A stretch of DNA of 64,000 bases from Daphnia carinata. Lineage: Eukaryota. Under the pieces are notes generated by a model that was not told the origin of the DNA, made no database searches, and was given only the letters and a program-made list of their open reading frames with translations. Position numbers and translations under genes: made by a program. The stretch covers positions 5,828,001 through 5,892,000 of the forward strand of contig NC_081333.1 in NCBI RefSeq assembly GCF_022539665.2. Reading direction: 5' to 3'. How positions within the stretch are numbered: position 1 is the first letter of the stretch; each line of letters opens with the position of its first letter. Below are positions 1-39,244 of this stretch, in pieces.

Positions 1-3000
1 ACCCAATTACTCAACCTATCAACAAACGCAGAGACCCCAGTACAGCAACGCACCGATACATTACAATCAACCAAACTTTCAACCACACAACAATCAACAA
101 GTGTATCATCAAAATCTGGGTTATCCTCAACAATACCCACAGCAACGACAAAACCAGCCGAACACCCCCGACACCCTTGGGAATAAGATTATTATCTGCT
201 ACAAGTGCAATAAAAGAGGACACATTGCACGAGAATGTTGGACAGATATGGCACGTATCAACAACCCGAACCACCGTCTAATGAACTAAACACAATTTTC
301 CTTACCAAACAACCCCCCAACATATAATTTAGAATCAGCGATACCCAAACTAATACGTATACCCATTAGAATTTTTGGAAAAGAAATTAACGCTTTAGTA
401 GACACAGGAGCCGCAGCTAGTTTAGTTTCAGACAGCATATTTTTCAACCTAAAGAAGAGGGAAGAACTTTAAAAAATTAAAAACACTTCCTCGCCAATAT
501 TCAGAACGGTGTCAGGAGAAATACTAAAACCAATGGGAAAATTTGAATTTTCAATTATCATTAACGATAATCACGTTATTAATCATCATTTCTTTATCAT
601 GGAAAACTTAGGTGAGACTTGTATCCTGGGTTTAGACTTCTTATCGAACAACAATGTAAAAATTAATACTAGAAACAGACAGATCAATTACGACCATTTT
701 GGGGTAGAACATAACTTTGGAACAAATATACACCCAATATACAGCCTAACGTTTGACAAAGTAGGCATTCATATCCCACTCATCCCATACCATTCACCAG
801 AAAATAACGATAACAATGACCTTACAGAAGCAGATTACCGCACCCTAGAATCTCTTTCCCAATCAGACAATAATATGAAATCTAAACGAATCAGAAAAAG
901 CCACGAAGGTGAAACAACCAACATCCCTGAAGAGATACTCATTAAAATAGAAATTTTATTGAAAAAACACGAGGCCCTATTCGCAGAAAAAGAATCAGAT
1001 CTGGGCGTAGAAACTGATAAAAACTGTAAACGTCCCATTAACATAGGATACAACGCCCCCATTACTCTAAGATTACGCAGAACTCCAGAAGCATTAAAAC
1101 TTATTGTAAAAACAAAAATTGAAGTAATGCTGAGTAACAATATTATTAGAGAAAATCACAACCCATTTGCAGCAGCCATAGTAATGGTACCAAAAAAAGA
1201 TAAAGAAAAGCGTACGTGTATTGATTATAGGGCACTGAACAAAATAACCGTAAAAGACAAATATCCTTTACCAAGAATTGACGACACCATTGATGCATTG
1301 AACGGATCAGCTTATTTTTAGACATTGGATTTACTCTAGCGGCTACTGGCAAATCGAGATAGATGAAGGCGACAAACACAAAATCGCTTTCATCTGTGAA
1401 TTTGGACAATATGAATTTAATAGAATGCCATTTGGGTTAACAAATGTACCAAGCACTTTTCAACGAGCAATGAATAACATCTTAAAATCAGTATTGTTCA
1501 AATTTGCATTGGTTTATCTGGATGACATCATAGTGTTCAGTAATAATATTGCTGAACATGTGACACATCTAGAAACAGTGTTTAAGCTTCTTAAAGACGC
1601 AGGGCTTAAAAAGAAAGACAAGTGAATTTTTTAAAGAAGAGTTAGATTATTTAGGATACATTGTTTCGAAAAAAGGAATAACACCGAATACGAAAAAGCT
1701 AGAAGCAATCATCAAATACCCGGCTCCCAAAAACGTGAAGGAATTGAGCTCATTTTTAGGTCTGGCTAGCTATTATCGAAAATTCATCCGGGCTTTTGCT
1801 GATAAAGCCCACCCACTGACAGCGCTAACGAGAAAATCAGCCGAGTGGAAATGGGGAGAGGAACAAAAGGACGCTTTTGACTGTATCAAGAACTTTCTCA
1901 TAACTAGACCTATCCTAGGGTATCCAGATTTTTCGCGCGACTTTATCATCCACACGGATGCGTCAGGATACGGAATAGCAGCGGATTCAGCGGAGTCCGA
2001 CGTACAGGAACCCCGTGAATCAGACGGCGCGGAAGTCGTCATAGCGTGTAGCTCTAAACATCTGAACGACCGCGAGGCCAAGTGGTCAACCACAGTGAAA
2101 GAGGCTTACGCAATCATCCATGCGATAGAAGTATTTAGAACATATTTATACGGACGCAGATTTACCGTATTTACAGACCTTAGACCTTTGGAATGGCTAA
2201 TGAGCAAGACAGAACCCGCAGGAAGATTAGCTAGATGGGCACTAAAACTCCAAGAATTTGACATCGCTATTGGGTACCGACCACTGAAGTCACACCAAAA
2301 TGCTGACACCCTAAGTCGTATTCCCATAGTGCCACTAGCAAGCGTAGAAACAAGGGCAACAGGAAAAGAAATTGTCATAAAAGAGCTTGAAAGAAACCGA
2401 AAAGAAAGTGAAAGATTAAAAAACAAACTACACATTGAAAGATTAAGGAAACAAGAACAACTTGATAGAGAAAATGAAAGTAGTTAGACAGGAAGCGAAA
2501 GTTTCGAAAGGAAAAATCATGAAGAGGAAAGCAAAAGTTTTGAAAGGGAAATTAGAAGTGAAAGTAAACGGACTTGGAGAGAAGACAGATGGCTAGAACA
2601 ACAGCAGGCAGATAAATATTGCCAAAAATTAATGATAAAAATACAAGAAGATAGCCAGAAAAGTAACAGATTTAGAAGCAACTTTATAATCAACGAAAAA
2701 GGTTTATTAACAGATAGGCAAGGAAAGCTAGTAGTCCCTATGACGTTAGTCACTGAGATTTTACGAGCAAACCATGATCAAATGTTAGCAGGACATTTAG
2801 GAATAGAAAAAACAATAGCCAGACTTCGAGAACAATACTTCTTCCCACATATGCGACAAAACGTAACAGAATACATCAAAAATTGCCTAAAATGCGCAAG
2901 ACGCAAGGCTGTGGGAGGAAGTAAAGCACCATTGCAACCTATGCCCCCAGCCGAAAGGATGTGGGAAAGACTCGCGATGGATATTGTGGGTCCAGTTCCA

Positions 3001-3105
3001 ATAAGCGCAAAGGGACATAGGTACATTTTGGTCCTATCAGATTACGCCAGTCGTTTCGTTTTTTCCAACGTGACACTGAGTGGACAAAATGCCAAGAAAA
3101 ATTAA
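1..3105 (+). pseudogene. Gypsy gag-pol remnant, integrase core deleted after ~3060
   Basis: ORF pieces 101-289, 509-1321, 1425-1625, 1735-2487 and 2632-3105. Integrase breaks off just after AMDIVGP...LSDYASRF. Confidence 0.92.
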
Positions 3106-5421
3106 GAACACTGGTAAGCAGTAATGATCCATTAGTGCGATCACAAACTGCAGTTGCCAACTGCAGCAAAACAAAAGAACGAGGACAAGCTTTCGAATAT
3201 ACATCTGATTTCACCATTCGACCATTCAACACGAATACCTGTGTTAAAGCCAATACAACAATGCTCGTTCTTCAAGAATGCGCGAACACCAACTCAATCT
3301 GGGGCACATTCGAATACACAGGCCAGCTCATGGCAACAGATAGAACCGGATTACATTCACCTTCATCAGACAGAAAGTGTCTAACACAGAGAGTAGGACG
3401 TGTCAGCCTGGGGCATTGTCACAGCTCCAGTAAAAAATAACACTTTAGCTTTGAATACCGCAACCCACATCAAATAAGGACGCTTTCAGCGGCAGCCATT
3501 ATAGATACACACTCAACAATCATTGGACGGGAAAACACTCCCATCTATACCGTCACTAATGCAAAGGGAGATCAATAACCAATCAGAGAAGAACAACACT
3601 TTAGCCACTCCCCCTGCCAACGCCCACAACAGAAAAATCCACAACAACGACAAGCGCTACGACGACTACAAAGCCCACAATAAAAACAATCTTGGGAACA
3701 ACGATAAAAACCACGGTAAAAATCACGACAACAATTAAGCCAGCTACAAGCACAGCAGCCAACAAACCAACAATAACACATAAAATAACAACAAAACCCA
3801 GTATAACAACAACATCACAAAACCATCCATAACTACAAAACCAATAATCACGTCAACAAGCACTAAACCTACCACTACTACTAGGCCTACGACAACTATT
3901 AAAATAACTTCAACTTCAAGAACCACTACAACCACGAAGCCTACGTCAACAACAACAACGGCTACTACGACAAGCTCCACAACAACAGCAACAACAACAA
4001 CGCACCAACCAAGCACAACTACGCAAAGTACGACGACAGTAAAAGAGAGTCCAATGACCCCACAATCGTCAACACAGACAGCCAGAATGACCCCATTAAC
4101 TACAACAGAAACAACGTCTACAACAGAAGAAAATCAAATTCGGGCCATCGAGAATAACTTTCCAAATTTACCACCCGCTGAGTCCGTTAATGGATCAGAA
4201 AACTAAAGAGTCATTAATTAATGATAATGTGGAAAGCGGTCTACCTAAAAACATCGAAGAATTCAACGACAAGATTAAATACGAAATAAGCAAAATGCAC
4301 GACCAATATAAAATCAGCGTTGAAACAGAACACGAAAACAAACTCGCAAAAGAAATTCGAGATGTTTATTGTCAACTATCGACAATCAAAAGAACACAGG
4401 CCGTTATCTTAGCTCAAACCAACGGAATTTTGGCTTCAGCAGCAATAGGTTTACCGATCTGTACGAGACTACAAGGCTTTGGTCAAGCAATGACACTTCA
4501 ACAATGCGAAGCCAAAAGAATTTTTATATCAACAAATGAATCAAAATGTGGATTTCAACCGTTCTTTACTTACGAAGGAAAGAACTGTACGATCGGAACA
4601 GATGGATGGTAAATTCACCCATTTTCCGATTGTTTTTGGAAAACACCGTTAGTGAATTTGAATGGAAATCCACACACCTGGGAACACAACTCTACAACAG
4701 GAGATTGGATACGCCAGAAACCTAGCATTCACATGCCTAATCTAGACCTCATTACAGAATTTGAAGAACTCCACCTTAATGATTTCGACTTCTCGCTGAA
4801 AAGTCACCCAGCACACGAGACAATGGAGATGGAACAATTAAATATCCTAAATGACCTAGTAGGTAGAATGCAAGAAGGAAATTCCAATACTGTTGGAGAT
4901 ATTGTGATGTCAGAGCAACAAGATAATAAAAAAAAGGCCACATGTTATCATGGTTCGACAAATTGAAAATAATAGGTCTATCAGCGATTGGATTTGTGCT
5001 TTTCCTCGTATGCTTACGGATATTCATCATTTGCAACCCCATCTCGAAGATTAAAGAACATATACGCAGAAAACGGAAGTTTACAAGCAGATACGATGAT
5101 GGCATAGAGGAAGAACACGAACTCGCATCAATGATACCAGGACGAGAAACAAATTACCATTCAGACATAGCAATCGAACAACCGTTCATAAGAGCGGCCG
5201 CCCCAGCACAGCTGACAACAGAAAGACAAGGTCAAATACGTTCTCCACGGCCAAGCGCACCAAATTCATTAATATACCCATTTGTCGAGGAAACTGACAC
5301 ACCCAAACGATGTACAGGAAGACATACCACGTGCACTTACGTCGTCGGGTATGGGATGGTCTGGGAAGACCTCTGTCGTTGCATGTCAGAAGCAGACAGC
5401 GGTAATTCAGCCAAAAAGTGA
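3106..5421 (+). pseudogene. Env-like membrane glycoprotein (lectin-like + mucin-like + conserved core + TM), fragmented
   Basis: Cys-patterned segment at 3110-3460 and Thr-rich tract at ~3600-4130. Core EHENKLAKEIRDVYCQ aligns by eye with the 61365-62618 ORF. TM segment IIGLSAIGFVLFLVCLRIFIIC is followed by a basic cytoplasmic tail. Confidence 0.75.
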
Positions 5422-6779
5422 AAATCCCCAAGGTCACTGAAATTAGAAGTAGCCACAAAACGTAGCCCTTGACAACTTAGTTAATTACATAATAAATTAA
5501 CAGCCCCCAATAAAAAACGCACTTACCAGAATTTAAAAGCTTCAACAATTAAGTTGATTATCATTTCTTGAATCCTTACCATTATTCAATACTCTGAAAC
5601 TTTATAGTAAAAACAAACAAACAAACAAACTCAAAATAACAATTATTGTATTTCCTAACTAACACCTTATCTCCAAAATCAAAAATTGAACAAGCAAACT
5701 AACAAACTCGAATGACCACGTCAAAATCCCAATTAATCAGCCTAACTACAAAATCAATAACAAAACCAAATAATAATACAAAAGAAAATCATCCGTCAGT
5801 TGAATCACAATTGGGAAGAGGAACACCATAATCAAAATAGCTGCGGAGTTGCGATGCACTTGTGTAGGCCGGGCGATAGTCACTCTCTTCTTCAAGACGC
5901 TCTTGCATAAAACGTGAAAAAAGAAGAAAAAGAAAAAGAAGAATTAAAAAAAAAAAAATTTATAAAGCAAAACAACACTTACGAATAATAGTAATCGTTG
6001 TGCGCCGGACGTTTGTACCCGAAATCCAGTGTCACCAAACCCGACACTTTAAAAGCCAGTCGAAACAAACCGAAGAAGAGGCTCCGATCCTCTTCGCGGA
6101 ATCTCCAGAAAAGGCTCGTAGGAGTAGAAAAAATCGCGTCATGAAGCCCACGCAAGGCCATATCAATCTGTTGTCGATAATGAAACACGTACACGTTGAG
6201 GAACACCCCACTGGAAAACGAAGAAACAAACATAACGACGGCACAAGTAGCGTAATCTTCAAAGTAACGAGGAAAACTAACTCACAAAGAAGAATGAGAA
6301 CAGGAGGACCCCTATAAGAAAATGACAAAGACTAAAAAAGGAATAAAGAAAGTTTGAAACGAACAGGATCGCCCTGCGGCAAATCCACATGTCAGCGCGA
6401 CACAAGACGCAGACAACATATTAAATGCACGAAAACCTGTTATTAAATTAAGAACATAGAAACAAGAACTTAAGGGAAAAGAAAAAGCAATACGACAAAC
6501 TTTGAAAGATTTGCAAACATGCGAAACTCTTCCCAGTGTTTCAACGGCATAAATCCAACAAAGTTTCACAATTCAGAGTGTGCATCACATACCATTAACT
6601 CATCTCAAAATTGCAAATAATTTTATCACAAAAGTTTACGACGGTAAAGGTACCATCATCCCCAGGAAGATGGAAAAGGTATACGAATTAATCACCATCA
6701 ACGACACCGAAAGTGAGGATAGTCAACAAGACTGCAGAGAAAAAGAAAGTGCGAAAAGTGCGGATGAAAACAACAATTC

Positions 6780-8015
6780 GTGCAATACATGGGATGGAAT
6801 GGAATAGAAACAGAAAAGAACGACTTTTTCGCAAATAGAGAGAAAGCAAATGACAGCAGTGAATCAAGTGAGGATGAAAACGAGGGTTTAACGGCGTATA
6901 GTGGAATAGCACCCGATTGCGAAAGTGTCTATAGTGTTGATTTTATATTAGGAAATTACAGTAACACTTATCTTCAGTGTGAACCTTCCAAAAAACGGAA
7001 TAAGCCTGACGACCAACAAAGGGGAACACAGGCATGCAAAAATTGTCGGATGAAAACGATAGCATCCCTATCAGTAGCCCGAGCAGAAAAAATCCAACTA
7101 CGAAGACAAGCCATGATAGACTTAGAAAACGGAAAACTTTCATTAACGATGATGGGAGCTCCAATGCAGGTAATAAGAAGGTGCATCCAAAATAAATTCA
7201 AAAGGCAACAAGGTTGGCCGAGACAGAAGATGGCAACATTTCTCAATAAAAGATTCGAAGAGGAACAGACGCTACTCCACACCAGCATACGAAGATGTAG
7301 GTACGACATTACCGATCTTTTACTATCCTTCGGAGGGGACCCATAGATACTCTATCACGGCAAAACAATTGGCCATATCGCAGCGGCCAAAGATAATGAT
7401 CTACTGTTACTCAGGATCCTAAAGCATAACAACTGCGAATTTACAGCTCGCAACTACAACGGAGAAACTCCCTTAATGTTGGCAATCTCATACGAAAACC
7501 AAGAATGTGCAAAGTTAATATGGACACCAACTAACATCAACATTGCAACACCTGACGGCAGAACCGTTTTGCATTATTTAGCCATGTATGGCCTAGAGGA
7601 CCTGACCACCCAAATTTGCGCAAAGAGAATCATCAACATCAACCAACAAGACGACTCAGGCAAAACCGCCTTACACGAAGCAGCCGGATTCAACCGAATC
7701 AACATCATCGAGCTTTTACTGCTACACGGAGCAGACGGAAGGATAAAAAACTCCCATGGACGTGCGGCTGGATCAGAAACATGCAGCTCAAGAGCGCAAA
7801 CCATATTCCAAAAATGGGAACTAAAACATAACAGTAATTCCCTGGCTAAAACTAGAAGAAAAGAACACCAACAATACAGCCGCGAGGAAAATGATCAAGC
7901 CGTAATCAACATAGCCGATATACCAGGCACAAAGAAAAGCAAGAATAAAAGGAGAAAAGAAAGAAGACAATACACCAACAACCTTATTAAAATCACATAC
8001 AACTCTTTTTCTTAA
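6780..8015 (+). pseudogene. Ankyrin-repeat protein ORF inside the Gypsy element (frameshift ~7340)
   Basis: About five ankyrin repeats: QTLLHTSI, GKTIGHIAA, GETPLMLAI, GRTVLHYLA and GKTALHEAA...IIELLLLHGAD. Confidence 0.85.
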
Positions 8016-8110
8016 ATTTTAGGTGAAGGAACAAGTTTTATTTTTCAACCATAGCAACAACTGTAGTCGGTGATGAAAAATGCAAATTGGACGACCAATT
8101 CTTCTTACCG

Positions 8111-8320
8111 AAGAGGGGAAGGAATGTAACAAGCCCAAAGGCTATCCAAAGGAAGCCACACCTCATACATCCCTCAAGCGTTTCACAAGTGAAAGTGAAC
8201 GTATCTCCTCCCACTTCACCTTCATAATTTGTATCCTTTAGTATTATAAATACTGCATGATTGTAACATGTAATTCGGAGTTGTTTTCGGCAACTCACTG
8301 CAAATACACGAGGTATTGGA
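8111..8320 (+). repeat. Polypurine tract and truncated 3' LTR of the Gypsy element
   Basis: AAGAGGGGAAGGAA (8111-8124) is followed directly by TGTAAC at 8125. TATAAA lies near 8245. The sequence runs into satellite at ~8320. Confidence 0.6.
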
Positions 8321-8850
8321 AACTATACAATACAGTGAATTTCAATATGTACATTCAAACAACATCAAATATACGTATAATCAATGCGAATATAGTGTGA
8401 TACAGTGAGTTTCAATATCTACATTCAACCAGCGTCAAATATACGTGTATTCAATGCGAATATAGAGTGATACAGTGAGTGTCAATATCTACATTCAAAC
8501 AGCATCAAATAAACGTGTATTCAATGTGAATATAGTGTGATACAGTGAGTTTCAATATCAACATTCAAACAACATCAAATATACGTGTATTCAATGTGAA
8601 TATAGTGTGATACAGTGAGTTTTAATATCTACATTCAAACAGCATCAAATATACGTGTATTCAATGTGAATATAGTGTGATACAGTGAGTTTCAATATCT
8701 ACATTCAAACAGCAACAAATATACGTGTATTCAATGTGAATATAGTGTTATACAATCAGTTTCAATATCTACATTCAAACAGAATCAAATATACGTGTAT
8801 TCAATGTGAATATAGTGTTATAGGATCAGTTTTAATAGTTACATTCAAAC
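8321..8850 (+). repeat. 70-bp tandem satellite (~7.5 units)
   Basis: Unit TACAGTGAGTTTCAATATCTACATTCAAACAGCATCAAATATACGTGTATTCAATGTGAATATAGTGTGA recurs at 8331, 8401, 8471, 8541, 8611, 8681 and 8751. Confidence 0.97.
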
Positions 8851-8990
8851 TGTTGAAATATCATTATGAGCATGTTATGGTGTTTGTCGCCTTACGGCTC
8901 TCTCTTCTCTTTCAAACTCCGTATGTAAAGGTACTCTGTCCTAATACAGTTTGAATGTTATAATCTGATTATTCTTTCCATTTGGATATC
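8851..8990 (+). repeat. Copia 5' LTR (internally deleted; 3' end, PBS and gag start missing)
   Basis: Matches 13575-13782 except for a gap of ~70 bp. Joins directly to gag codons DGSNYREW at 8991. Confidence 0.9.
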
Positions 8991-13574: not shown

Positions 13575-13843
13575 TGTTGAAGTATCATTATAAGCATGTT
13601 ACGGAAACCTAGTTAGGTTGCTGAACCATCTTGTATTGTTTATCCCTAACCTTCGGTTGTTCTCTTCATGGGTAGATATCGCCTTACGGCTCTCTCTACT
13701 CTTTCAAACTCCGTATGTAAAGGTACTCTGTCCTAACACAGTTTGAATGTTATAATCTGATTATTCTTTCCATTTGGATATCAAATAGAGATTTAGTGTA
13801 ACTTATACAAACGGTACTGAATAAACTATCACTTATTCCAACA
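13575..13843 (+). repeat. Copia 3' LTR (269 bp)
   Basis: TGTTGA start after the PPT, AATAAA near 13820, CCAACA end, followed by the TSD. Confidence 0.93.
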
Positions 13844-13848
13844 CAAAC

Positions 13849-15119
13849 AGTATCAAATATACATATATTCAATGTGAATCAAGTGTGATACTGTGAGTTT
13901 GAATATGTACATTCAAAGAGAATCAAATATACGTGTATTCAATGTGAATATAGTGTGATACAGTGAGTTTCAATATCTACATTCAAACAGCATCAAATAT
14001 ACGTGTATTCAATGTGAATATAGTGTAATACAGTGTGGTTCAATATCTAGATTCAAAGAGCATCAAATATATGTGTATTCAATGTGAATATAGTGTGATA
14101 CAATGAGTTTCAATATCTACTTTCTAATACCATCAAATATACGTGTATTCAACGCAAATATAGTGTTATTGAATCAGTTTTAATACCTACTTTCAAACAG
14201 TATCAAATATACGTGGTTTCAGTGTGAATATAGTGTGATACAGTGAGTTTCAATATCTCCATTCAAACAGCATAAAACATACGGGTATCCATTGTAAATA
14301 TAGTGTAATAGAATGAGTTTCATGATCTACATTCAAACAATATCAAATATACGTGAATTTAATGTGAATATAGTGTGATACATTGAGTTTCAATATCTAC
14401 ATTCAAACAGCATCAAATGTACGTGAATTCAAAGTAAATATTGTGTTTTAGAATCAGTTTCATGAGCTTCATTGAAATAGTATCAAATATACGTGTATTC
14501 ACTGTGAATATAGTTTGATACAGTGAGTATCAATATCTACATTCAAACAGCATCAAATATACGAGTATTCAATGGGAATATAGTGTTTTATAGAATCATT
14601 TTCATGATCTAGATTCAAAATGTATGGAATATACGTGTATTCAATGTGAATATAGTGTGATACAGTGAGTTTAAATATCTAGATTCAAACAGCATAAAAC
14701 ATACGTGTATCCCATGTAAATATAGTGTTATAGAATCAGTTTCATGATCTGCATTGAAGCAGTATCAAATATACGTGTATTAAATATGAATATAGTGTGA
14801 AACAGTGAGTTTCAATAGCTACATTCTAATAGCATCAAATATACGTGTATTCAACGTGAATATAGGGCTTTGGAATCAGTTTTAATACCTACATTCAAAC
14901 AGTATCAAATATACCGGTTTTCAATGTGAATATAGTGTGATACAGTGAGTTTCAATATCTAAATTCAAACAGCATCAAATATACGTGTATTCAATGTGAA
15001 TATAGTGTTACAGAGTCAGTTTCATGAACTACATTTAAACGGTATCAAATATCCGTGTATTCAATGTGAATATAGTGAGATACAGTGAGTTTCAATATCT
15101 ACATACAAACCGCATCAAA
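13849..15119 (+). repeat. 70-bp tandem satellite (~18 units)
   Basis: Same unit as 8321-8850, resuming in register after the Copia TSD. Confidence 0.97.
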
Positions 15120-15143
15120 TTAGGTTAGGTTAGGTTAGGTTAG
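15120..15143 (+). repeat. (TTAGG)4+ telomere-type repeat
   Basis: TTAGGTTAGGTTAGGTTAGGTTAG. TTAGG is the common arthropod telomeric motif. Confidence 0.85.
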
Positions 15144-17318: not shown

Positions 17319-17510
17319 GTAGCTTATTTGTAATTGATATATTTTATTGACTGTGAAACAGCAGGAACGGAATGTAATATTCCGTTTTATTTTTCCATTT
17401 CTTCACTACAGAAAATATTTGACTTAATTTTATATGATGAGTTATACCAAGGAGTATCATTCAAGCAGTTTTTTTTAATAACGATAAATATTCTGTTCTA
17501 AAAGGATCAT

Positions 17511-17885
17511 TGTTACAGACTCTCGTGCAAGAGTTGTAACAGAGAGAATGAGGGATGAGTGGTGATAAGGATGAAATGAAGATGACGATGATATAAAACA
17601 AAGTACTGCTTTATTTCAGGGCTGAGGGAAACAAAAAACGTCGCGCTTGATGCGAAATACGGGGACACAAACTGAGTGCAACTTAAATTTGGATGGGGAC
17701 AAAACGAGACAAGAAACGAGAAAACAAAAGTGACTGTCTGGGTCGACAAAGAATACGATACTACCCTTTTCCCATGGAAAGGGGTAAAAAGACAACAACA
17801 AAACCAAAAAAAAAAAGGGCACCCGATACTAATCAGGCCCGTGCCCCCTACAGCCCTGCCCGCGAGGGCAGCACCGTAGGTGACA
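17511..17885 (-). repeat. BEL 3' LTR
   Basis: TGTTAC...GTGACA. Matches 25485-25868 apart from a ~9-bp indel near 17680. Confidence 0.96.
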
Positions 17886-17980
17886 GCGGGACCTGTTGCA
17901 TCTGTTACAACATGTGCAAACAAACAAACATAAAACATACTTCTAAACGTACAACACACCACCGAATATAACCATCAATT

Positions 17981-18673
17981 TTAGTGGCTGGGAAGATCTT
18001 TGTAAGTCTTCTTTGTGCCACACAGGATCTGGTGATGATCTCGGGTGTGGCACAACCCGCACTGACGAGGATGGGGACAATCGGGGAGCCTCACGTGCCC
18101 CGCTACGGCCGTCGGGACGAAACACCCGAAACACCTCCGTTGCCCGAAGAGAAGCTCCAGTTTCTCTTGATTGGTGAGGAGCATAAACTCCTCACATTCT
18201 GCGATCTTCTTTTTGCACGACGTCGCTCCCGAGACGTGGCACTTAAGAAAACACATGATGTTGGGAGTGTGTACCGGAACTATATACGTAGGGCGTTCCG
18301 GGGTGACGAGCAGCGTGGGCGGAAGAGTTTCGGTCGCCTTTTCACGTTCTTTACGCAGGAGGGACCCGACGTACCCGCTTAACAGGGCTTCTCGCTCAGT
18401 TTTGAAGTGCACGTGCACGTTTACTAGGTCCTTCTGACGTTCGTCGTGTTCCTTGTCAAGGCGAACAATCGCACTTTGATACAAGTACACTTTCTCCACT
18501 GCTTCCTTTTTTGCTATTAAAATTCCGTCAATGAGTTCCGTGAGGTTGGCCACGCACTCTTGTTCGCGTTCCCTGCTTACTTTCAGTTTTTCCTTCACGG
18601 ATGCGGATGATGGAGGCGGATATTCTGCCATGGTAATCACGTTGGGTGTGAGTTCACTGGTGGTAAGTTTCAC
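17981..18673 (-). CDS. Additional BEL ORF: coiled-coil plus Cys/His zinc-knuckle cluster
   Basis: Open 230-codon frame (first ATG gives MAEYPP...). Charged helical N-terminal half and C-terminal CFGC...H...C...CGLC...HHQILC. Confidence 0.7.
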   Translation of the reverse strand: MKLTTSELTPNVITMAEYPPPSSASVKEKLKVSREREQECVANLTELIDGILIAKKEAVEKVYLYQSAIVRLDKEHDERQKDLVNVHVHFKTEREALLSGYVGSLLRKEREKATETLPPTLLVTPERPTYIVPVHTPNIMCFLKCHVSGATSCKKKIAECEEFMLLTNQEKLELLFGQRRCFGCFVPTAVAGHVRLPDCPHPRQCGLCHTRDHHQILCGTKKTYKDLPSH

Positions 18674-19062
18674 TATGACGAAGTTAGGTCGATTAAAGGC
18701 TGTCTGCTAGCAGATTTGGCTAAATGGTTTCCAAATTTCCCTTTGGTGTTGCTAAACAGCAAGCGACCTAACTTTGCCCTTTGCCCTATATTTGAACTTA
18801 AATATAGGTGGCGTTGAGCTTCGTGAATCCCCCACCAGGTTTAGAGTTGCGATTGTCTTACGTTGTTTACAGTTGAGTTTACCATTGTGATTTTACTTGT
18901 TAAATTTACATTTTTGTTTTTACAAGGGAAGCTACTAATTATAGATAGTATTTACATTTTACAACACCTTTTGCCTGTACAATTTTGGTTGTATAAGGGG
19001 AGCTACTAATTGTAGCTCCATTACAATTCAGTATTTACATTTTACCATACTGAAGTTGAATT

Positions 19063-22000
19063 TTACGCTGTTAAAGGTTCCATTTTTTCTTCCTTTGCGT
19101 AAACTTCTTGATCTTTGGCTGCAACCATGATACATAATTTGGCCACCGGCCGAATACATGGTTTTGGGTGGTTGCTGAGCTTGACTTTTACGACTCGAAC
19201 CACATTATCCGTTACACTGGGGATAACTTCCAACACTTTGCCCATCGGCCACTGCCCACGCAAAGTACTTGGTTCAACTGCTAACACTAAATCTCCCACG
19301 GTGACGTTAGGCCTATTTTCTTGCCACTTTCTTCTCTCAGTTAAGTGGGGAACGTATTCACGTAGCCATCTGTTCCAAAAGTGCTGAAGGATGGCTTGAC
19401 TTTGCTGGAACTGCTTGTTGGTTACGTTCAGGTCTTCCACGTCGGCCAATTGCAGGGGCACGTATGGACGGGCCCCACCGTGTAGGAAGTGATTGGGCGT
19501 TAACGGATCCGGGTCTCCTGGATCCATACTCAGATGAGTTAACGGCCGGGCGTTTAACAAGGCTGCCACTTCAGCGATTACGGTTCGTAGCACTTGGTCC
19601 GTAACTAGGCAATTACCAATGCTGGTTTTCATTGCCCGTTTACAAGACTGTACGATTCTTTCCCAAACGCCACCAAAGTGAGGTCCATGGGGAGGAGAAA
19701 AGTGCCACTCAATTTGTTGGCAAGCCATTGACGTCTGGAGCTCTTCGTGTTTGCTGATGAGTTCTTCCAACGCTTGCCGTAACTCCTGCTCGGCGGCAAC
19801 AAAGTTCGTCCCATTGTCGCTGTAAACGACTTTAGGTTTACCACGTAGACTAACAAAACGGGAGAAGCAGAGTAAGAACTCCTCCATACTAAGCCCGTTG
19901 GCCACTTCCAGGTGAACCGCTCGTGTGGTGAAGCACGTAAATAGGCTGATCCAACGTTTTTCGTGTCTTCTTCCCCTACCACCAACTCTTACGGTCAAGG
20001 GTCCGAAATAATCGATCCCTGTGTACGTGAACGCCGCCAGATGTGGTGTTAAACGATGGACTGGTAGTGAAGCCATCAAAGGAGGGCTAGGTTTTGCCGA
20101 CGTGCGCTTGCAGGGCCAGCAGTTGTTGAGGACAGATTTTACCACTTTACGTCCAGAGAGTATCCAGTAGCGAGAGCGGAGGTCCGTCAACAATCTCTCC
20201 GTCTTGACGTGCAGGTTTCTAACGTGGTGATCCCAGATTATCCTTTTTGTTAAAAGTTGAGATGCTGGTAGAAGTATGGGGTGCTTGGCTGCATAGTCGA
20301 TCGGCGCGTGAAGTATACGTCCGCCAATTCGCGTTTGTCCAGCTTCATCCAAGAAGGGCTGGAAGGTGCGAAGTTTTGATCTGAGTGGTAATTCCAGATT
20401 CTTGCGAAGGGCGTAGACTTCCTCAGCAAAGGCCAATTCTTGCGCCCGTACGATGCATTTTTTCAGCGACGTTACCATTTCTTCTACTGTCAGCTCCCCG
20501 ACCATGGGTTTTTCATCACGAATTTTTGCCCTAGCGTTGTTGGTAAATCTTGTGGTCCAGGCCAGCACTCGTTGAATTTTCACCAAGCTGGAAAAACGTG
20601 CAACGCAATTGTCGATGGCATGGTTCTCATCTTCTGTTTTTACTGCCAAGACGCGAATCACGTTTACGTCTCGTTCCTCAGGCTCCGAGATTTCTTCCCA
20701 AGAGTACCACTCTGAGGGGTCTAGGATCAGGAACGAAGGTCCTCGATGAAAATAGGCCAATTCGTCGACGTCTTTTGGGTCGATACCCCTGCTACAAAGG
20801 TCTGCAGGATTTGAAACTCCGGCGACATGACGCCATTGTCGACGACCCGTGTTTCGGAGTATTTTTCCGATGCGGTTGTTGACGAAGACTTCAAATCGGC
20901 ACGTCTTCGAGTGGATCCACCGCAGCACTGTTTGCGAGTCTGTGTGGAAGGTTACTTGCCTCAAATCAATTTCTAGTTCACGACAAATCGTGAGAGCAAT
21001 GTTGAGGCCTTCTACTGCCGCCTGTAACTCCAAACGGGGAATTGTGAGACCTTTTACCGGTGTGACGTGCGTTTTCGACATGACGAATGACACGTTGACG
21101 GAATGGTCTTCAAATACAGTGCGGAAGTAGGCTACTGCTCCGAATCCTTTGGAGCTTGCATCCGTGAAGACGTGGAGGCACTGTTGAGTCCATCGTCCTC
21201 GTTTGAAACGGAAGCACCTCGGTACTGAGAGCGACTCCAAATTTTCCAGATGATCGTACCAGCAATAGAAACGTTGACTCAATGCTTCCGGTACGACGTC
21301 ATCCCATCCGATCCGTTCTTCGTTGGTCCAAATGTCTTGGAGCAAGGACTTCATTACGAAGATAACTGGTGCAACCAGCCCCAACGGGTCGTAGACGCTA
21401 GAGATGATGCTGAGGAAGGCTCGCTTCGTGAGTGTCACGTTGTGCGGCGACTTCCGAATCTTGAACGTCAGCATATCTCGTTCGCTGTCCCACATTACTC
21501 CCAGAGTTCTTTCGACGGGAAGTTTTTCCAAATCCAGATCCAGAGTTGGTGAGGCGAGGCCAAACTCTCGTAGCGCAGCTATCACCATTCGCGATGACGA
21601 CGTCCATTTGGTCAAATTGAAGCCCCCTAACTGAAGAAGGGACTTCATTTCGCGGGACCGTTTGATGACCTCGTCTTCGGAGTCAAATGAGTCGAGATAA
21701 TTGTCGACGTAGAAATTACGTCGAACGCTATCGGCTACGTCTGGAAACTGGCTGCTGTAGTCGTCGGCCGTCCTGTTGAGGGCGAAGATACAGCTCGTCG
21801 GGGATGATATAGCTCCAAATACGTGTACCGTCATCTGGTACGTTAACGGAACTGAATTACTGCCAGGCGTCCGGTAGAGAAATCGGAAGGCTGCCTGGTC
21901 TGCTTCCGGGACTTTCACTTGGTGGAACATTTTCTCAATGTCCGCTCCGACTGGCACAAGGTTACGGCGGAAGCGGATGAGTACACCAAGCAAGCTAACG

Positions 22001-25000
22001 AGTAGATTGGGTCCCCGAAGCAAATTTTGGTTTATCGATGTGCCACCAAACTCAGCAGCTCCATCGAATACAACGCGAACTTTGGTCGATGAGCTGGAAG
22101 GGCTCACGACCCCGTGGTGTGGCAGGTACCACGTCTTGTTTGTCTCCGTCTGAGCTTCTTGGGTCGTTAGGAGCCGGGCGTGTTTTAACCCGATGTACTC
22201 CTTGACTACTGCATCGTACTTGTGAGCAAACTCCTCGTCTCGATGAAAACGTCGTTCGAGAGCGTAGAGCCTCTTCAATGCAGCTGCCCGATTATTTGGG
22301 AGATTTACTTCGTCGGTTTTCCACATTAAGCCGACTTGATACTGGTTACCGATACGTTTTACTGACGATTCGAGGATGCGTTTTCCACGTAGATCATCCT
22401 CGGATAGAACGGGTGGTTCTATCTCTACTTCACTGGCCTCAAGTTGCCAGAACTTCTTCACCATCTCGTTTAGGTCTTCGGGACGTTCCTCGATGGCCAG
22501 ATGAGCGTTGAACGGGCGTCCGTCTTGCGGTGGACCTGTTTGTCCACCCAGACACCAACCAAACGGCGTCTTGAAGGCGATGGGCCCAGTCGTTCCAGCC
22601 GGCGGCTTGATGGAAGCTACATGATCGTGGGCCTCTGCGACGTCGATTCCTATCAGCACGGTCACGTCCTCTTCTTGCACGGTTGAGACGTCAATACCAC
22701 GTAGGTGTTTCCATGACTCCAACTGTCGAGGGTCGATCGGCGAATTCGGCGTCACCTTCAAATTGTCGACGGCGTAAGCGTGTTTGACTTCAAACTGGCT
22801 GCTGCCGTCACGAGACGTTAGGGTGAAGTTTACTACGGAAGCCGTAACGTTAGACATGGCTCCGTCATACGAGACGACGTTGATGCGTTTTGATGGCCCA
22901 ACGAGTCCCAACTTTCTTACTAAATCGCTCCGAATCAGCGTGGTGTCGCTTCCGGTATCAAGGAAGCCGAAAGTGTCGACCCACGTTTTGCCAACTCCAA
23001 CACGAACCGGTACGATCTTGAAACGTACACGTCGTTTTACTGTTTCCAGATGGGTTAAAGTCCCAAGGAAAGCTGTCGAAGGTGGCGCTGATGGAGCAAT
23101 TGGATCCGCTAGCCTCCTCAATGGGACGAATTCGGATCCGTGAAGCAAGGTGTGGTGTCGGTTTCCGGTACAATCAGCAATAGTACAGCTGACGTCCCTG
23201 GGACATTCCTTGCGTTCGTGTTTCCCCGTAAGACATAACAGACATCTTCCGGACTTGAATACCTTCTCAGCCCTTTTCGTGGGCGTGAGAGACATGAAGA
23301 CGTTACAAGTTGAGAGATGGTGGCTCCTGCCATTACATACAAAGCATTTCCATCTTTCCGTCTTCTCGGCTGGCATCTTCCCCGATGTTGATCGGCTCCT
23401 TAGAGGCATGGTCGCTGAAGATGTTGACGCCGTTACTTTCGAACCTTCCATCGTCGTTACGTGTCCAATGGTCGACGTGTGTGGGAAGCTGAATCTCTTG
23501 ACGGGCTTCCTTTCGTCAAACTTTACACCTTTGGACGTCGACGTGGGTAGAGATTCGAATACATTTTTACCATGCTGCTTGCTCATGGATTTTAAAGTCA
23601 CCCAGTCGTCTAAGTCTAGAACATTAAGTTCTACTCCATTCTTTTTACGTTTCTCGTTCCATTTGTCCTTGAGGTAAGGCGTGAGTTTTGCTTCAAGGGC
23701 CATCAACGTTGTACGGCTATATAGCTCATGGGCATACTTCGACTTGGAGAGCGTGGCTACTGCACCATGAAGACGGTTTGCGAAGGTCTTGAGGCTGGCA
23801 GCATCTAAGCTCTTCAATGGCGGGACCTGTAGAAGGTCGTCGAGGTACGTCTGATCCATAATTTCAGTTCGGCCGTAGACCGCGTCCAAACGTTCCCACA
23901 GCACGGAGTACATCGTTCCATCGGTGAGACATTCACCGACTTCGTTCCGTACCTCTTCGGCTAGCAGCTCCTCCAACATGAAAAGAAGTACCGGAGAATC
24001 TTCGTACTCTTCATACAAGGCCTGGAATTTAGCCTTGAATCGTGCGTAGTTCTTCGGATTGCCGTCAAATGGCTGGATCTTGAAGTTGGGAGGTTGTAGT
24101 CGGCTGCAACAGCTGCTATGCGGACGATTTACTTGACTGTGGGGGTGAGAACGTTCGGAGTGTTCATCTTCTTCGTGATCCGTAGGGTCGCAACGGGACG
24201 TCATCGTGGCCATCGCACCTCGCCGCGGGTCTCGTGGAGATGCATCGGCGGCGACCAATCTTCTGCGATGACGGACAGCATCCTCCATCGTGCGTATGGG
24301 TGACAGGGCTGGAACCTCTTGACGTGCTTGTAAGACTGGTGATCGTTCAGGAAGTCGTTGATCTTGAATCGTTCGGGGCTGAACTTTCATCTCGTCTACT
24401 TCCGTTCGAAGGTCTTCGATTTTAGCGGACAAATCCACCTTAACCGCGTCAATTTTCTGATCCAAACCGTCCAACGTGTGGTGTGCTTCCCGTACTAACG
24501 TGTTGTTGGCCGCGATGTCTTTGGACGTGACTCTTGAGCTATCAATGAGCTTACTAAGTTGTTCGCTCATGCTCCTTAACGCCTTGTTGAGGGTTTCTGT
24601 GATGGAAGTTGTATTTGCTTCCATCTGGGCCCTTGCCGTTTCCAACTTCAATTCCAACTTCAGCATCCGAGCTTCAGCCTCCAATTCCTCTTGAGTTGAT
24701 TGTTGGGGGAGGCTGGTTGGTTTAACGCTGGTACGCCTTTTTTCGGATAACGTGGTACTACATGTGATGTCCGAGGCTGATGTCCCAATCGAGCTGACGG
24801 ACTGATTTGAGGAAGTGGCATAGCGACTTGCGAATTTGACGATTTCAGCGTGGTCTGTTTCGAAGTCTACTTCCCACTTATCACATGCTTGACGTTGCTG
24901 GTCAGTCAGGCCGGATATACTTTCTGCATACTGGTTGTGAATTGCTTTGACTTCTTCGTATATACGAATCAATTCGTCACGCCATGTGGTTACTTGTAAC

Positions 25001-25296
25001 TTCTTTAATCTGATGGCCCCCATCTTGTGGTCTTCCACAGCCTTTCTGAGTTGTGTCGTTAACTTCGTGTGGGCCGCCTTTCTCTTCCCACGTTTCTTCT
25101 TGAGATCGTTTTCGGGAAGTAATGGCCGTTCACTCTTCTGCCGTTCAGGTTTCGATACGTCTACCATTGGGTTCGGGCCGTGTTCCCAAATGTGGCCAAT
25201 TTCCATATTTTCGGCTTTGGGTGCGGCTTCACTCATGACGTAGAAACGTTTTCTTAGGCTGATAGAGTCACACGTTAACGGATGTCGATGATTCAC
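19063..25296 (-). CDS. BEL/Pao Gag-Pol polyprotein (likely ATG at 25236)
   Basis: Gag PFDGNPKNY, triple zinc knuckle, protease FLDTGS, RT (ADIEKMF, FYVDN), Pao RNase H (VFTDAS, IPRLEL), integrase (GIDYFGP, YSDNGTNF, GGVWER) and a C-terminal PLTPNHFL/FWNRW domain. Confidence 0.97.
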   Translation of the reverse strand: MNHRHPLTCDSISLRKRFYVMSEAAPKAENMEIGHIWEHGPNPMVDVSKPERQKSERPLLPENDLKKKRGKRKAAHTKLTTQLRKAVEDHKMGAIRLKKLQVTTWRDELIRIYEEVKAIHNQYAESISGLTDQQRQACDKWEVDFETDHAEIVKFASRYATSSNQSVSSIGTSASDITCSTTLSEKRRTSVKPTSLPQQSTQEELEAEARMLKLELKLETARAQMEANTTSITETLNKALRSMSEQLSKLIDSSRVTSKDIAANNTLVREAHHTLDGLDQKIDAVKVDLSAKIEDLRTEVDEMKVQPRTIQDQRLPERSPVLQARQEVPALSPIRTMEDAVRHRRRLVAADASPRDPRRGAMATMTSRCDPTDHEEDEHSERSHPHSQVNRPHSSCCSRLQPPNFKIQPFDGNPKNYARFKAKFQALYEEYEDSPVLLFMLEELLAEEVRNEVGECLTDGTMYSVLWERLDAVYGRTEIMDQTYLDDLLQVPPLKSLDAASLKTFANRLHGAVATLSKSKYAHELYSRTTLMALEAKLTPYLKDKWNEKRKKNGVELNVLDLDDWVTLKSMSKQHGKNVFESLPTSTSKGVKFDERKPVKRFSFPHTSTIGHVTTMEGSKVTASTSSATMPLRSRSTSGKMPAEKTERWKCFVCNGRSHHLSTCNVFMSLTPTKRAEKVFKSGRCLLCLTGKHERKECPRDVSCTIADCTGNRHHTLLHGSEFVPLRRLADPIAPSAPPSTAFLGTLTHLETVKRRVRFKIVPVRVGVGKTWVDTFGFLDTGSDTTLIRSDLVRKLGLVGPSKRINVVSYDGAMSNVTASVVNFTLTSRDGSSQFEVKHAYAVDNLKVTPNSPIDPRQLESWKHLRGIDVSTVQEEDVTVLIGIDVAEAHDHVASIKPPAGTTGPIAFKTPFGWCLGGQTGPPQDGRPFNAHLAIEERPEDLNEMVKKFWQLEASEVEIEPPVLSEDDLRGKRILESSVKRIGNQYQVGLMWKTDEVNLPNNRAAALKRLYALERRFHRDEEFAHKYDAVVKEYIGLKHARLLTTQEAQTETNKTWYLPHHGVVSPSSSSTKVRVVFDGAAEFGGTSINQNLLRGPNLLVSLLGVLIRFRRNLVPVGADIEKMFHQVKVPEADQAAFRFLYRTPGSNSVPLTYQMTVHVFGAISSPTSCIFALNRTADDYSSQFPDVADSVRRNFYVDNYLDSFDSEDEVIKRSREMKSLLQLGGFNLTKWTSSSRMVIAALREFGLASPTLDLDLEKLPVERTLGVMWDSERDMLTFKIRKSPHNVTLTKRAFLSIISSVYDPLGLVAPVIFVMKSLLQDIWTNEERIGWDDVVPEALSQRFYCWYDHLENLESLSVPRCFRFKRGRWTQQCLHVFTDASSKGFGAVAYFRTVFEDHSVNVSFVMSKTHVTPVKGLTIPRLELQAAVEGLNIALTICRELEIDLRQVTFHTDSQTVLRWIHSKTCRFEVFVNNRIGKILRNTGRRQWRHVAGVSNPADLCSRGIDPKDVDELAYFHRGPSFLILDPSEWYSWEEISEPEERDVNVIRVLAVKTEDENHAIDNCVARFSSLVKIQRVLAWTTRFTNNARAKIRDEKPMVGELTVEEMVTSLKKCIVRAQELAFAEEVYALRKNLELPLRSKLRTFQPFLDEAGQTRIGGRILHAPIDYAAKHPILLPASQLLTKRIIWDHHVRNLHVKTERLLTDLRSRYWILSGRKVVKSVLNNCWPCKRTSAKPSPPLMASLPVHRLTPHLAAFTYTGIDYFGPLTVRVGGRGRRHEKRWISLFTCFTTRAVHLEVANGLSMEEFLLCFSRFVSLRGKPKVVYSDNGTNFVAAEQELRQALEELISKHEELQTSMACQQIEWHFSPPHGPHFGGVWERIVQSCKRAMKTSIGNCLVTDQVLRTVIAEVAALLNARPLTHLSMDPGDPDPLTPNHFLHGGARPYVPLQLADVEDLNVTNKQFQQSQAILQHFWNRWLREYVPHLTERRKWQENRPNVTVGDLVLAVEPSTLRGQWPMGKVLEVIPSVTDNVVRVVKVKLSNHPKPCIRPVAKLCIMVAAKDQEVYAKEEKMEPLTA

Positions 25297-25464
25297 GTAG
25301 ATACACCGATCTTCTTGTCAGATGGCAAACGCGTGGTGGACAGGTGGGTGCCTTCAGGCTGGCGTGGACGTCTGCCAAAGGTTTTCCAGGGAGAATACCC
25401 AACAATTTTACAATCAAGCGAGGGTTTTTACTAACGAGGATGGAATTTGCACGTGTTCGTCAAA

Positions 25465-25482
25465 TCCCGGGTTTCGGCACCA
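25465..25482 (-). promoter_or_regulatory. Primer binding site complementary to tRNA-Phe 3' end
   Basis: Minus strand reads TGGTGCCGAAACCCGGGA, 2 nt after the 5' LTR. Plus strand TCCCGGGTTTCGGCACCA matches the eukaryotic tRNA-Phe 3' end as I recall it. Confidence 0.85.
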
Positions 25483-25484
25483 TT

Positions 25485-25868
25485 TGTTACAGACTCTCGT
25501 GCAAGAGTTGTAACAGAGAGAATGAGGGATGAGTGGTGATAAGGATGAAATGAAGATGACGATGATATAAAACAAAGTACTGCTTTATTTCAGGGCTGAG
25601 GGAAACAAAAAACGTCGCGCTTGATGCGAAATACGGGGACACAAACTGAGTGCAACTTTGATGCAACTCATTTGGATGGGGACAAAACGAGACAAGAAAC
25701 GAGAAAACAAAAGTGACTGTCTGGGTCGACAAAGAATACGATACTACCCTTTTCCCATGGAAAGGGGTAAAAAGACAACAACAAAACCAAAAAAAAAAAG
25801 GGCACCCGATACTAATCAGGCCCGTGCCCCCTACAGCCCTGCCCGCGAGGGCAGCACCGTAGGTGACA
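25485..25868 (-). repeat. BEL 5' LTR
   Basis: Direct repeat of 17511-17885, adjacent to the PBS. Confidence 0.96.
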
Positions 25869-39104: not shown

Positions 39105-39240
39105 CGTCTTGACGAGTTTGTAAGACTTGTGATCGCTCGGGAGGTCGTTTATCTTGAATCGTTCGTGGTTGAACTTTCATCGCGTCTACTTCCGTTCGAA
39201 GTTCTTCGATTTTGGCGTTTAACTCCACCTTAACTGCTAA
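39105..39240 (-). mobile_element. BEL gag fragment paralogous to 24318-24447
   Basis: AVKVELNAKIEELRTEVDAMKVQPRTIQDKRPPERS versus AVKVDLSAKIEDLRTEVDEMKVQPRTIQDQRLPERS. Confidence 0.9.
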
Positions 39241-39244
39241 TTTG

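What the first reader, a model, noticed from the sequence alone, without database searches (positions are those of the whole stretch)
6320..8124. Ankyrin-repeat cargo gene between env and the 3' LTR of a Gypsy element
Seen: about five ankyrin repeats, preceded by an acidic/Cys-containing region. The ORF is in the sense orientation, shows no obvious introns, has the same A-rich strand bias as the element, and ends ~95 nt before the PPT+TG. Established: ankyrin proteins are not standard Gypsy components, whereas polydnaviruses and poxviruses use ankyrin proteins as IkB-like immune antagonists. Inference: a complex retrovirus-like element with an accessory host-modulating gene.
Basis: partly seen in the sequence, partly recalled or inferred. 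Interest (0 to 1): 0.72.

Follow-up and report, generated by a model that had tools for sequence, protein, structure and literature searches.

The report
Ankyrin gene in water-flea retrovirus-like element
A decayed retrovirus-like jumping gene, likely from a water flea, has a broken ankyrin-repeat gene behind its envelope gene, and relatives of this gene follow the envelope gene in many predicted water-flea genes, so it is likely a fourth gene of the element that may bind and blunt a host defence protein.

Summary
Five ankyrin repeats lie at 7263-7790, in sense, between env (stop 5421) and a polypurine tract plus TGT (8110-8127). The reading frame ends at 8015, 94 nt before the tract. It is not an intact ORF here: homology starts near 6610, not 6320, with a frame change and an in-frame stop. 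The gene belongs to a multi-copy family whose organism-named members are all Daphnia (47 of 47 named hits). In 25 of 26 Daphnia magna-type gene models that hold both env and this ankyrin, env comes first. The family is one clade, splits like env with one exception, and diverges about seven times faster. The element belongs to the published branchiopod HSV/gB-type errantiviruses (PMC13524379), where no ankyrin is mentioned. I could not fetch DNA of another copy, so paired LTRs and dN/dS are untested. IkB-family folds tie for best structural match with Notch, gankyrin and DARPins, so NF-kB antagonism stays a lead (about 0.25). Verdict: an accessory gene of a known element group, not found in print; function inferred.

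The parts
1..289 (+). 3' end of gag with a CCHC zinc knuckle (the element runs off the window start; 5' LTR and primer site not in the window)
   Evidence: Pfam zf-CCHC E 2.6e-06
370..3060 (+). pol, broken by stops and frame changes: protease, reverse transcriptase, RNase H, integrase zinc-binding domain; integrase core missing
   Evidence: Pfam gag-asp_proteas (weak, E 0.015), RVT_1, RT_RNaseH, Integrase_H2C2; integrase match to P0075 ends at 3060
3069..5421 (+). env remnant of HSV/gB (class III) type: second ricin-B lectin domain, Thr-rich stalk, C-terminal ectodomain, membrane span near 4960-5030, tail ending in a conserved Cys/His motif; about 550 N-terminal residues are deleted together with the integrase core
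   Evidence: Pfam Ricin_B_lectin E 8.8e-08; 66-84% identity to D. magna env proteins; env profile matches
5422..6582 (+). spacer of about 1.2 kb, A-rich; initiator-like TCAGTT at 5796; no purine tract plus TGT
   Evidence: composition and tract scan; motif scan; no match among 336 stored proteins except the start of P0001
6583..7034 (+). 5' part of the ankyrin gene: acidic, Ser/Thr-rich region, predicted disordered; start position of relatives near 6610 has no start codon here; frame change between about 6770 and 6800
   Evidence: tblastn of P0001 and P0002; pLDDT under 50 for residues 1-158 of P0001; D+E 0.17-0.26 in 7 relatives
7035..7262 (+). CxxC motif and family-specific helical cap in front of the repeats
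   Evidence: conserved in subfamilies A-E; helices 188-244 in the model; profile of this part finds 47 organism-named hits, all Daphnia
7263..7790 (+). five ankyrin repeats, interrupted by an in-frame stop at 7344-7346
   Evidence: Pfam, alignment, motif positions, model pLDDT mostly over 90
7791..8015 (+). C-terminal tail with a basic, NLS-like stretch at 7932; stop codon 8013-8015
   Evidence: same C-terminus in P0001; basic stretches in subfamilies A, B, D but not in P0002
8110..8124 (+). polypurine tract
   Evidence: sequence; unique in the window, 0.006 expected per 8.3 kb under a rule set afterwards
8125..8329 (+). candidate 3' LTR: starts TGT, TATA box at 8245; end uncertain (possibly 8308); a 70-bp satellite follows at 8330
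   Evidence: sequence, motif scan, tandem repeats; no 5' LTR available for comparison

Best explanation
This is a broken copy of an ankyrin-repeat gene that lies between env and the purine tract of a decayed env-carrying Gypsy element; it is likely a fourth, accessory gene of one branch of Daphnia errantiviruses, and its product likely binds a host defence protein to shield the element. Shown: the anatomy in the window, the multi-copy Daphnia family, the env-then-ankyrin order in gene models, monophyly, faster divergence than env. Inferred: (a) the gene lies inside the LTRs in other copies and is copied with the element (about 0.9); (b) intact copies make it as a separate protein of 340-550 aa from an internal promoter or spliced RNA (about 0.8); (c) it is a host-directed binder: a disordered acidic arm, a CxxC plus helical cap, a five-repeat binding surface and often a basic tail, without an enzyme or ligase domain, so it would act by occupying its target (about 0.55); (d) the target is a Rel/NF-kB dimer, so that it works like a viral IkB mimic (about 0.25, the leading named candidate).
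For:: the 13 best of 29 hits (E 2e-32 or lower, 38-86% identity) are 12 Daphnia-named proteins and 1 unnamed; the next is a generic ankyrin at 27%; 47 of 47 organism-named hits among 56 are D. magna, D. carinata or D. sinensis; 16 of 59 relatives of the env C-terminal part carry an ankyrin Pfam domain; of 194 proteins examined, 88 belong to the ankyrin family, 26 of these hold env sequence, 25 with env first. 21 of the 26 come from one D. magna annotation and lie on 12 contigs of different length. Separate env and ankyrin models are locus-tag neighbours twice: APZ42_030137/030139 and OUZ56_017561/017559; 18 family rows form one side of a 100/100 branch against the 22 best-scoring of 127 other five-repeat stretches; env and ankyrin trees both separate window+B from C+D (95/94 and 82/83); path window to B is 0.18-0.20 for env and 1.29-1.33 for ankyrin; eight D. 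carinata proteins of 405-413 aa differ at 1-16 positions and lie on 7 contigs, as expected of recent dispersed copies. Published branchiopod HSV-type elements with listed LTRs have 0.4-1.4 kb between env stop and 3' LTR (7 rows), against 2.7 kb here; the 5 published elements with this env type have no LTR listed, and the authors searched only 3000 nt past env. Bcl-3 Z 20.9, rmsd 3.3, 217 aligned, 27% identity (highest identity of the 50 rows); IkB-beta 19.4/2.3/192, p100 19.2/3.2/231, IkB-alpha 18.4/2.9/190.
Against: No DNA of any other copy was obtained, so paired LTRs, target-site duplications and dN/dS are untested. The env-ankyrin link rests on predicted gene models, 25 of 26 from two D. 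magna annotations; no call links the eight D. carinata copies to env. One model has env after the ankyrin (P0313) and one joins a subfamily C ankyrin to a distant env type (P0314). The congruence rests on one internal branch of four groups, and the tree tool warns of long branches. Env relatives from D. pulex (P0093) and unnamed sources are not shown to carry the gene. Missing LTR entries may reflect a missing primer site, and 2 of the 5 rows touch a contig end (0 of 5 against 7 of 10, p 0.026; 0 of 3 against 7 of 10, p 0.07). Bcl-3 is tied within 1 Z unit with a DARPin (21.3), Notch1 (20.9), gankyrin (20.6) and HIP14 (20.6). Fast divergence also fits relaxed constraint. Nothing here shows expression or any partner.
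Confidence: 0.55

Rival explanations
1. Accessory gene of the element, but serving its own life cycle: a nuclear co-activator of the LTR or an adaptor for Gag, integrase or the env tail, not a host antagonist.
For: Position between env and the 3' LTR is that of the regulatory genes of foamy viruses and deltaretroviruses (recalled, no call). Acidic disordered arm plus basic tail in subfamilies A, B, D. Notch1 and Bcl-3, both nuclear co-regulators (recalled), are among the tied best folds.
Against: Related branchiopod elements with the same env class have short env-to-LTR gaps, four of seven at about 1.1 kb or less, and are multi-copy, so they appear to replicate without it. The basic tail is absent in the most recently amplified D. 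carinata proteins. Sevenfold faster divergence than env fits a changing host partner better than a conserved element partner (inference).
Confidence: 0.25
2. The ankyrin ORF is an alternative last exon of env: splicing gives a membrane protein with lectin and fusogen outside and ankyrin repeats inside the cell.
For: 12 of 28 fused gene models join right after the same env tail residues (GYGM), in subfamilies B and C.
Against: The joins land at several different places and 16 of 28 use other joins. None of the 26 fused models is a RefSeq model; RefSeq models give stand-alone ankyrin proteins with their own Met and env proteins that end in the full Cys/His motif. The predicted donor falls in a conserved Val codon, which would supply a GT in any case.
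Confidence: 0.08
3. A host ankyrin gene or neutral passenger that only happens to lie beside or within this copy.
For: This copy is broken like the rest of the element; the LTR pair is unverified; ankyrin genes are common.
Against: Same order at many loci and in three subfamilies 23-42% identical to the window's protein; open frames kept across that divergence; one clade with no close non-Daphnia relative; shared strand bias and a unique purine tract downstream, none between env and the gene.
Confidence: 0.07

Closest known systems
Branchiopoda C2 HSV/gB-type errantiviruses (Chary and Hayashi, eLife 2026, PMC13524379): Dmag_errantivirus_7, Dcar_5, Dcar_6, Dsin_4, Cdub_7
   Same: Same element group. 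The published env stretch of Dmag_errantivirus_7 reads like P0069 (compared by eye), and P0069 is 66-70% identical to the window's env ectodomain parts.
   Different: The paper catalogues gag, pol and env. The word ankyrin has 0 occurrences in its main text and its 7 text supplements; no LTRs are listed for these five rows. Its figures could not be seen.
Burro/GYPSM1 giant Gypsy elements of planarians (PMC6431247, section 7 read)
   Same: Env-bearing Gypsy elements that carry ankyrin repeats and other host-like domains, proposed to meddle with host systems.
   Different: There the repeats are listed among motifs of a 4,873-aa ORF1 polyprotein with env in frame between gag and pol; here they form a separate ORF after env.
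Polydnavirus Ank/vankyrin IkB mimics (PMC3359993, passages read)
   Same: Viral ankyrin stack without the IkB degradation signal; no D[SD]GxxS motif in 10 of 10 family members checked; IkB folds among the best matches.
   Different: Ank-H4 and Ank-N5 consist of the repeat domain alone and bind NF-kB by experiment; this family adds 70-180 acidic residues, a CxxC and a helical cap, and no binding or descent from Cactus is shown.
Poxvirus ANK-PRANC/F-box proteins (definition recalled)
   Same: Viral ankyrin proteins; generic fold matches to avipoxvirus ankyrin proteins.
   Different: No PRANC or F-box Pfam match in 43 of 43 members at E 0.01.

Membership tests
Errantivirus (env-containing Ty3/gypsy, operational definition of PMC13524379) | Pol in Ty3/gypsy order PR-RT-RNaseH-IN after a gag | tested here: met
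   Pfam order; protease match is weak (E 0.015); no RT tree was built
Errantivirus (env-containing Ty3/gypsy, operational definition of PMC13524379) | env of F or HSV/gB type after pol | tested here: met
   66-84% identity to D. magna env; P0069 matches the published Dmag_errantivirus_7 stretch; a low-confidence model of relative P0086 (mean pLDDT 48) hits class III viral glycoproteins throughout its named top rows
Errantivirus (env-containing Ty3/gypsy, operational definition of PMC13524379) | Paired LTRs and primer-binding site | not testable with these tools
   5' end outside the window; no genome held; only purine tract, TGT and TATA box seen
Intact errantivirus | Uninterrupted gag, pol and env | tested here: not met
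   stops, frame changes and a deletion from integrase into env
IkB family / polydnavirus IkB mimics | IkB-like ankyrin repeat domain | tested here: inconclusive
   Bcl-3 Z 20.9 (rmsd 3.3, 217 aligned) tied with DARPin, Notch1, gankyrin, HIP14; Bcl-3 rank 17 by Foldseek
IkB family / polydnavirus IkB mimics | Repeat domain alone, as in Ank-H4 and Ank-N5 | tested here: not met
   acidic arm, CxxC and helical cap precede the repeats; definition from PMC3359993 passage
IkB family / polydnavirus IkB mimics | No signal-induced degradation motif (viral mimics) | tested here: met
   no D[SD]GxxS in 10 of 10 proteins; motif recalled; weak test
IkB family / polydnavirus IkB mimics | Descent from Cactus/IkB | not testable with these tools
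   no Cactus, IkB or Daphnia host ankyrin sequence was at hand for the tree; the donor is unresolved
IkB family / polydnavirus IkB mimics | Binds Rel homology domains and blocks NF-kB signalling | not testable with these tools
Poxvirus ANK-PRANC | C-terminal PRANC/F-box domain | tested here: not met
   0 of 43 members match such a Pfam family at E 0.01
Burro-type Gypsy | Ankyrin repeats within the gag-env-pol polyprotein | tested here: not met
   separate frame 1.2 kb after the env stop; Burro layout

The most novel reading that the evidence does not exclude
A branch of Daphnia errantiviruses are complex retroviruses that have long carried their own IkB-like antagonist: a fast-evolving ankyrin protein that damps Toll/Imd NF-kB signalling in the cells the element infects, a retro-element counterpart of polydnavirus vankyrins, still amplifying in D. 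carinata and D. magna.
Probability: 0.25. Interest if true: 0.8.

Novelty: new variant of a known kind. Interest (0 to 1): 0.58.

Why it matters
Invertebrate errantiviruses are described as gag-pol-env elements. A conserved fourth gene that diverges about seven times faster than env suggests that some of them engage a host protein directly, as complex vertebrate retroviruses do. Daphnia is a tractable host-parasite model, and intact natural copies are already in public annotations under host-like names (ankyrin repeat domain-containing protein 1-like, tankyrase-like), so the target can be found by pull-down. These annotations also inflate Daphnia ankyrin gene counts, and catalogues that look only 3 kb past env may miss the true 3' ends of these elements.

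Tried and rejected
DNA of other copies: no genome is held; no sequencing run was listed (no evidence either way); the ankyrin alignment gave 1 locus in metagenome contigs and 3 in viral contigs, all weak generic ankyrins at 24-29% identity (not read further); the env alignment gave none in viral or genome contigs. The profile search of 1.84 billion representatives was swamped by long ankyrin proteins and added only P0171 and P0201. Complex prediction of two copies of the capped repeat domain with zinc gave no verdict. No IkB chain was in the 60 best sequence matches to P0001 or to the family profile, lists that favour long repeat proteins; IkB-alpha appeared at E 0.006 with the cap profile, among many DARPins. 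No polydnavirus protein is named in the 50 best viral fold matches, several rows being unnamed; these absences exclude nothing. The protein atlas gave only generic ankyrin clusters; a second look at the cap alone got no answer. NCBIfam gave only sub-threshold generic ankyrin matches. A start at 6322 was rejected (11 codons, no homology). The 145-codon stop-free frame 5880-6317 has no Pfam match and no match among stored proteins. P0325 was labelled D in the tree but groups with B. Literature: no paper held all terms; some searches returned 2, 2 and 1 papers, of which only PMC6431247 (Burro) was read and bears on the matter.

Full report
What is in the window. Bases 1 to about 8330 hold a decayed Gypsy element on the plus strand: the end of gag, then protease, reverse transcriptase, RNase H and the integrase zinc domain, then a deletion into env, whose remnant runs from 3069 to a stop at 5421. 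After a 1.2-kb spacer comes the ankyrin gene. Five repeats start at 7269, 7365, 7467, 7563 and 7665, behind an acidic region and a CxxC at 7035. The frame ends at 8015; a purine tract at 8110-8124 is followed by TGT and a TATA box at 8245. That tract is the only such site on either strand of the window, with 0.006 expected per 8.3 kb under a rule set after seeing it, and there is none between env and the ankyrin gene. The A-rich strand bias holds through the gene (0.39-0.43) and drops in the candidate LTR (0.32). The gene is broken: the ATG at 6322 opens 11 codons, homology starts at 6583-6610, the start position of relatives has no start codon, the frame changes near 6770-6800, and a stop lies at 7344-7346.

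The gene belongs to a Daphnia family. The window's protein, read with X at the stop, found 29 clusters among 7522 candidates; the best 13 are 38-86% identical, 12 named Daphnia and 1 unnamed, and the next is a generic ankyrin at 27%. A profile of the CxxC, cap and first repeat found 56 clusters among 7995 scored; all 47 with an organism name are D. magna, D. carinata or D. sinensis. That the window is from a water flea is inferred from this. The members fall into subfamilies (A: window and D. carinata; B, C, D: D. magna, with B also in D. sinensis; E, F: unnamed) that share the layout acidic arm, CxxC (absent in the one F fragment), helical cap and five repeats. Eighteen family rows form one side of a 100/100 branch against the 22 best-scoring of 127 other five-repeat stretches, drawn from 161 stored ankyrin proteins. 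No host Cactus or Daphnia ankyrin was at hand, so the donor is open.

The gene travels with env. Of 59 relatives of the env C-terminal part, 16 carry an ankyrin domain (the length window favours long, fused models). Of 194 stored proteins examined (142 generic ankyrins left out), 88 are family members; 26 contain env sequence, 25 with env first and 1 with env after. These are predicted gene models: they show order and strand at a locus, not a real message. Twenty-one come from one D. magna annotation and lie on 12 contigs of different length, 4 from a second, 1 is unnamed; none is a RefSeq model. Two further pairs are separate env and ankyrin models two locus tags apart on the same contig. Against the window, env and ankyrin identities are 75-87% and 41-47% for subfamily B, 70% and 33% for C, 74-75% and 23-28% for D. 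Both trees separate window+B from C+D, with 95/94 for env and 82/83 for ankyrin; the path from the window to B is 0.18-0.20 for env and 1.29-1.33 for ankyrin. This is one internal branch, long branches are flagged, and P0314 pairs a C ankyrin with a distant env. Eight D. carinata proteins of 405-413 aa, 1-16 differences apart, lie on 7 contigs, which fits recent dispersed copying; no call links them to env.

What I could not show. No DNA of another copy was reached. Paired LTRs, target-site duplications, dN/dS and expression are untested.

The element group is published; the gene was not found in print. Chary and Hayashi (PMC13524379; I saw the search listing, passages, the supplement list and rows of supplementary files 1, 2 and 5, not the figures) list 15 HSV/gB-type elements from Diplostraca. 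Five share the env motif of this branch, and the stretch given for Dmag_errantivirus_7 reads like P0069, which is 66-70% identical to the window's env. None of the five has LTRs listed, against 7 of the other 10; the authors looked 3000 nt past env. In those 7 the env stop lies 0.4-1.4 kb from the 3' LTR, against 2.7 kb here. This fits a 3' LTR pushed out by cargo, but blank entries may only mean no primer site, and two rows touch contig ends (p 0.026, or 0.07 without them). Ankyrin does not occur in that paper's text or 7 text supplements, nor in PMC2996953 on D. pulex LTR elements (passages), PMC3597677 (passages) or PMC5408684 (term search only). Searches for the combination found 0 papers, and 2, 2 and 1; of these I read only PMC6431247 (passages and section 7), which describes ankyrin repeats in the polyprotein of planarian Burro elements. 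Subscription journals, repeat databases and bioRxiv supplements were not searched and may hold a mention.

How it likely works. The model of the closest intact relative P0001 has a disordered first 160 residues, four helices at 188-244 and a confident five-repeat stack. There is no enzyme, PRANC or F-box domain in 43 of 43 members. Such a protein can only act by binding. Open frames kept across 23-47% identity point to selection on the protein, and the pace relative to env points to a partner that changes, most simply a host protein; relaxed constraint is not excluded. Among solved folds Bcl-3 (Z 20.9, rmsd 3.3, 217 aligned, 27% identity) ties with a DARPin, Notch1, gankyrin and HIP14; IkB-beta, p100, IkB-alpha and IkB-zeta follow at Z 18.3-19.4. 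Polydnavirus Ank proteins bind insect NF-kB and are bare repeat domains (PMC3359993, passages; PMC3757122, start of abstract only). I therefore commit to a host-directed decoy (0.55), with NF-kB the leading named target (0.25). Rivals: a regulator or adaptor for the element itself (0.25), a spliced env-ankyrin fusion (0.08; 12 of 28 fused models share one join), and a chance neighbour (0.07).

Verdict. The cargo reading is well supported by protein-level evidence across three Daphnia species names; the immune-antagonist reading is a lead. Earlier notes of this scan held nothing on this sequence and showed other env-carrying Gypsy elements with accessory genes (unchecked), which makes cargo as such less surprising. 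Novelty: new variant of a known kind. Interest 0.58.

Noticed in passing
window 3069-5421 and relatives P0069, P0086: The env of this branch has two ricin-B lectin domains and a Thr-rich stalk inserted in a class III fusogen, and a conserved Cys/His motif at the end of the tail. The words ricin and lectin have 0 occurrences in the main text of PMC13524379. It may be a glycan-binding envelope.
   Followed up: partly
window 3060-3072: A deletion joins the integrase zinc domain directly to the middle of env, removing the integrase core and about 550 env residues.
   Followed up: yes
window 61368-62917, minus strand: A second, more distant env of the same class (about 30-45% identity), followed by the same 70-bp satellite; no ankyrin match near it.
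   Followed up: partly
window 8330-8850, 13844-15120, 60395-61246: A 70-bp satellite in three blocks, the last inverted; between the first two lies a copia-like element flanked by 104-bp direct repeats at 8887-8990 and 13679-13782, 98% identical.
   Followed up: no
window 17510-25868, minus strand: A young LTR element: terminal repeats identical over 175 and 199 nt, and a 2084-codon open frame at 19066-25317. Class not tested.
   Followed up: no
window 30490-33493, 39233-43626, 44708-45178, 50837-54000: Further retroelement remnants (by eye DIRS-like, Gypsy, copia-like, Gypsy); the window is a dense nest of mobile elements.
   Followed up: no
protein P0314 (D. magna APZ42_034229): A subfamily C ankyrin joined to a distant env type: either a swap of the cassette between element branches or a gene model across nested elements.
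   Followed up: partly
protein P0318 (unnamed): A family member with about 190 extra C-terminal residues without a Pfam match.
   Followed up: no
window 5880-6317: A 145-codon stop-free, Lys/Arg-rich frame in the spacer, downstream of an initiator-like TCAGTT at 5796; no homologue found among stored proteins.
   Followed up: partly
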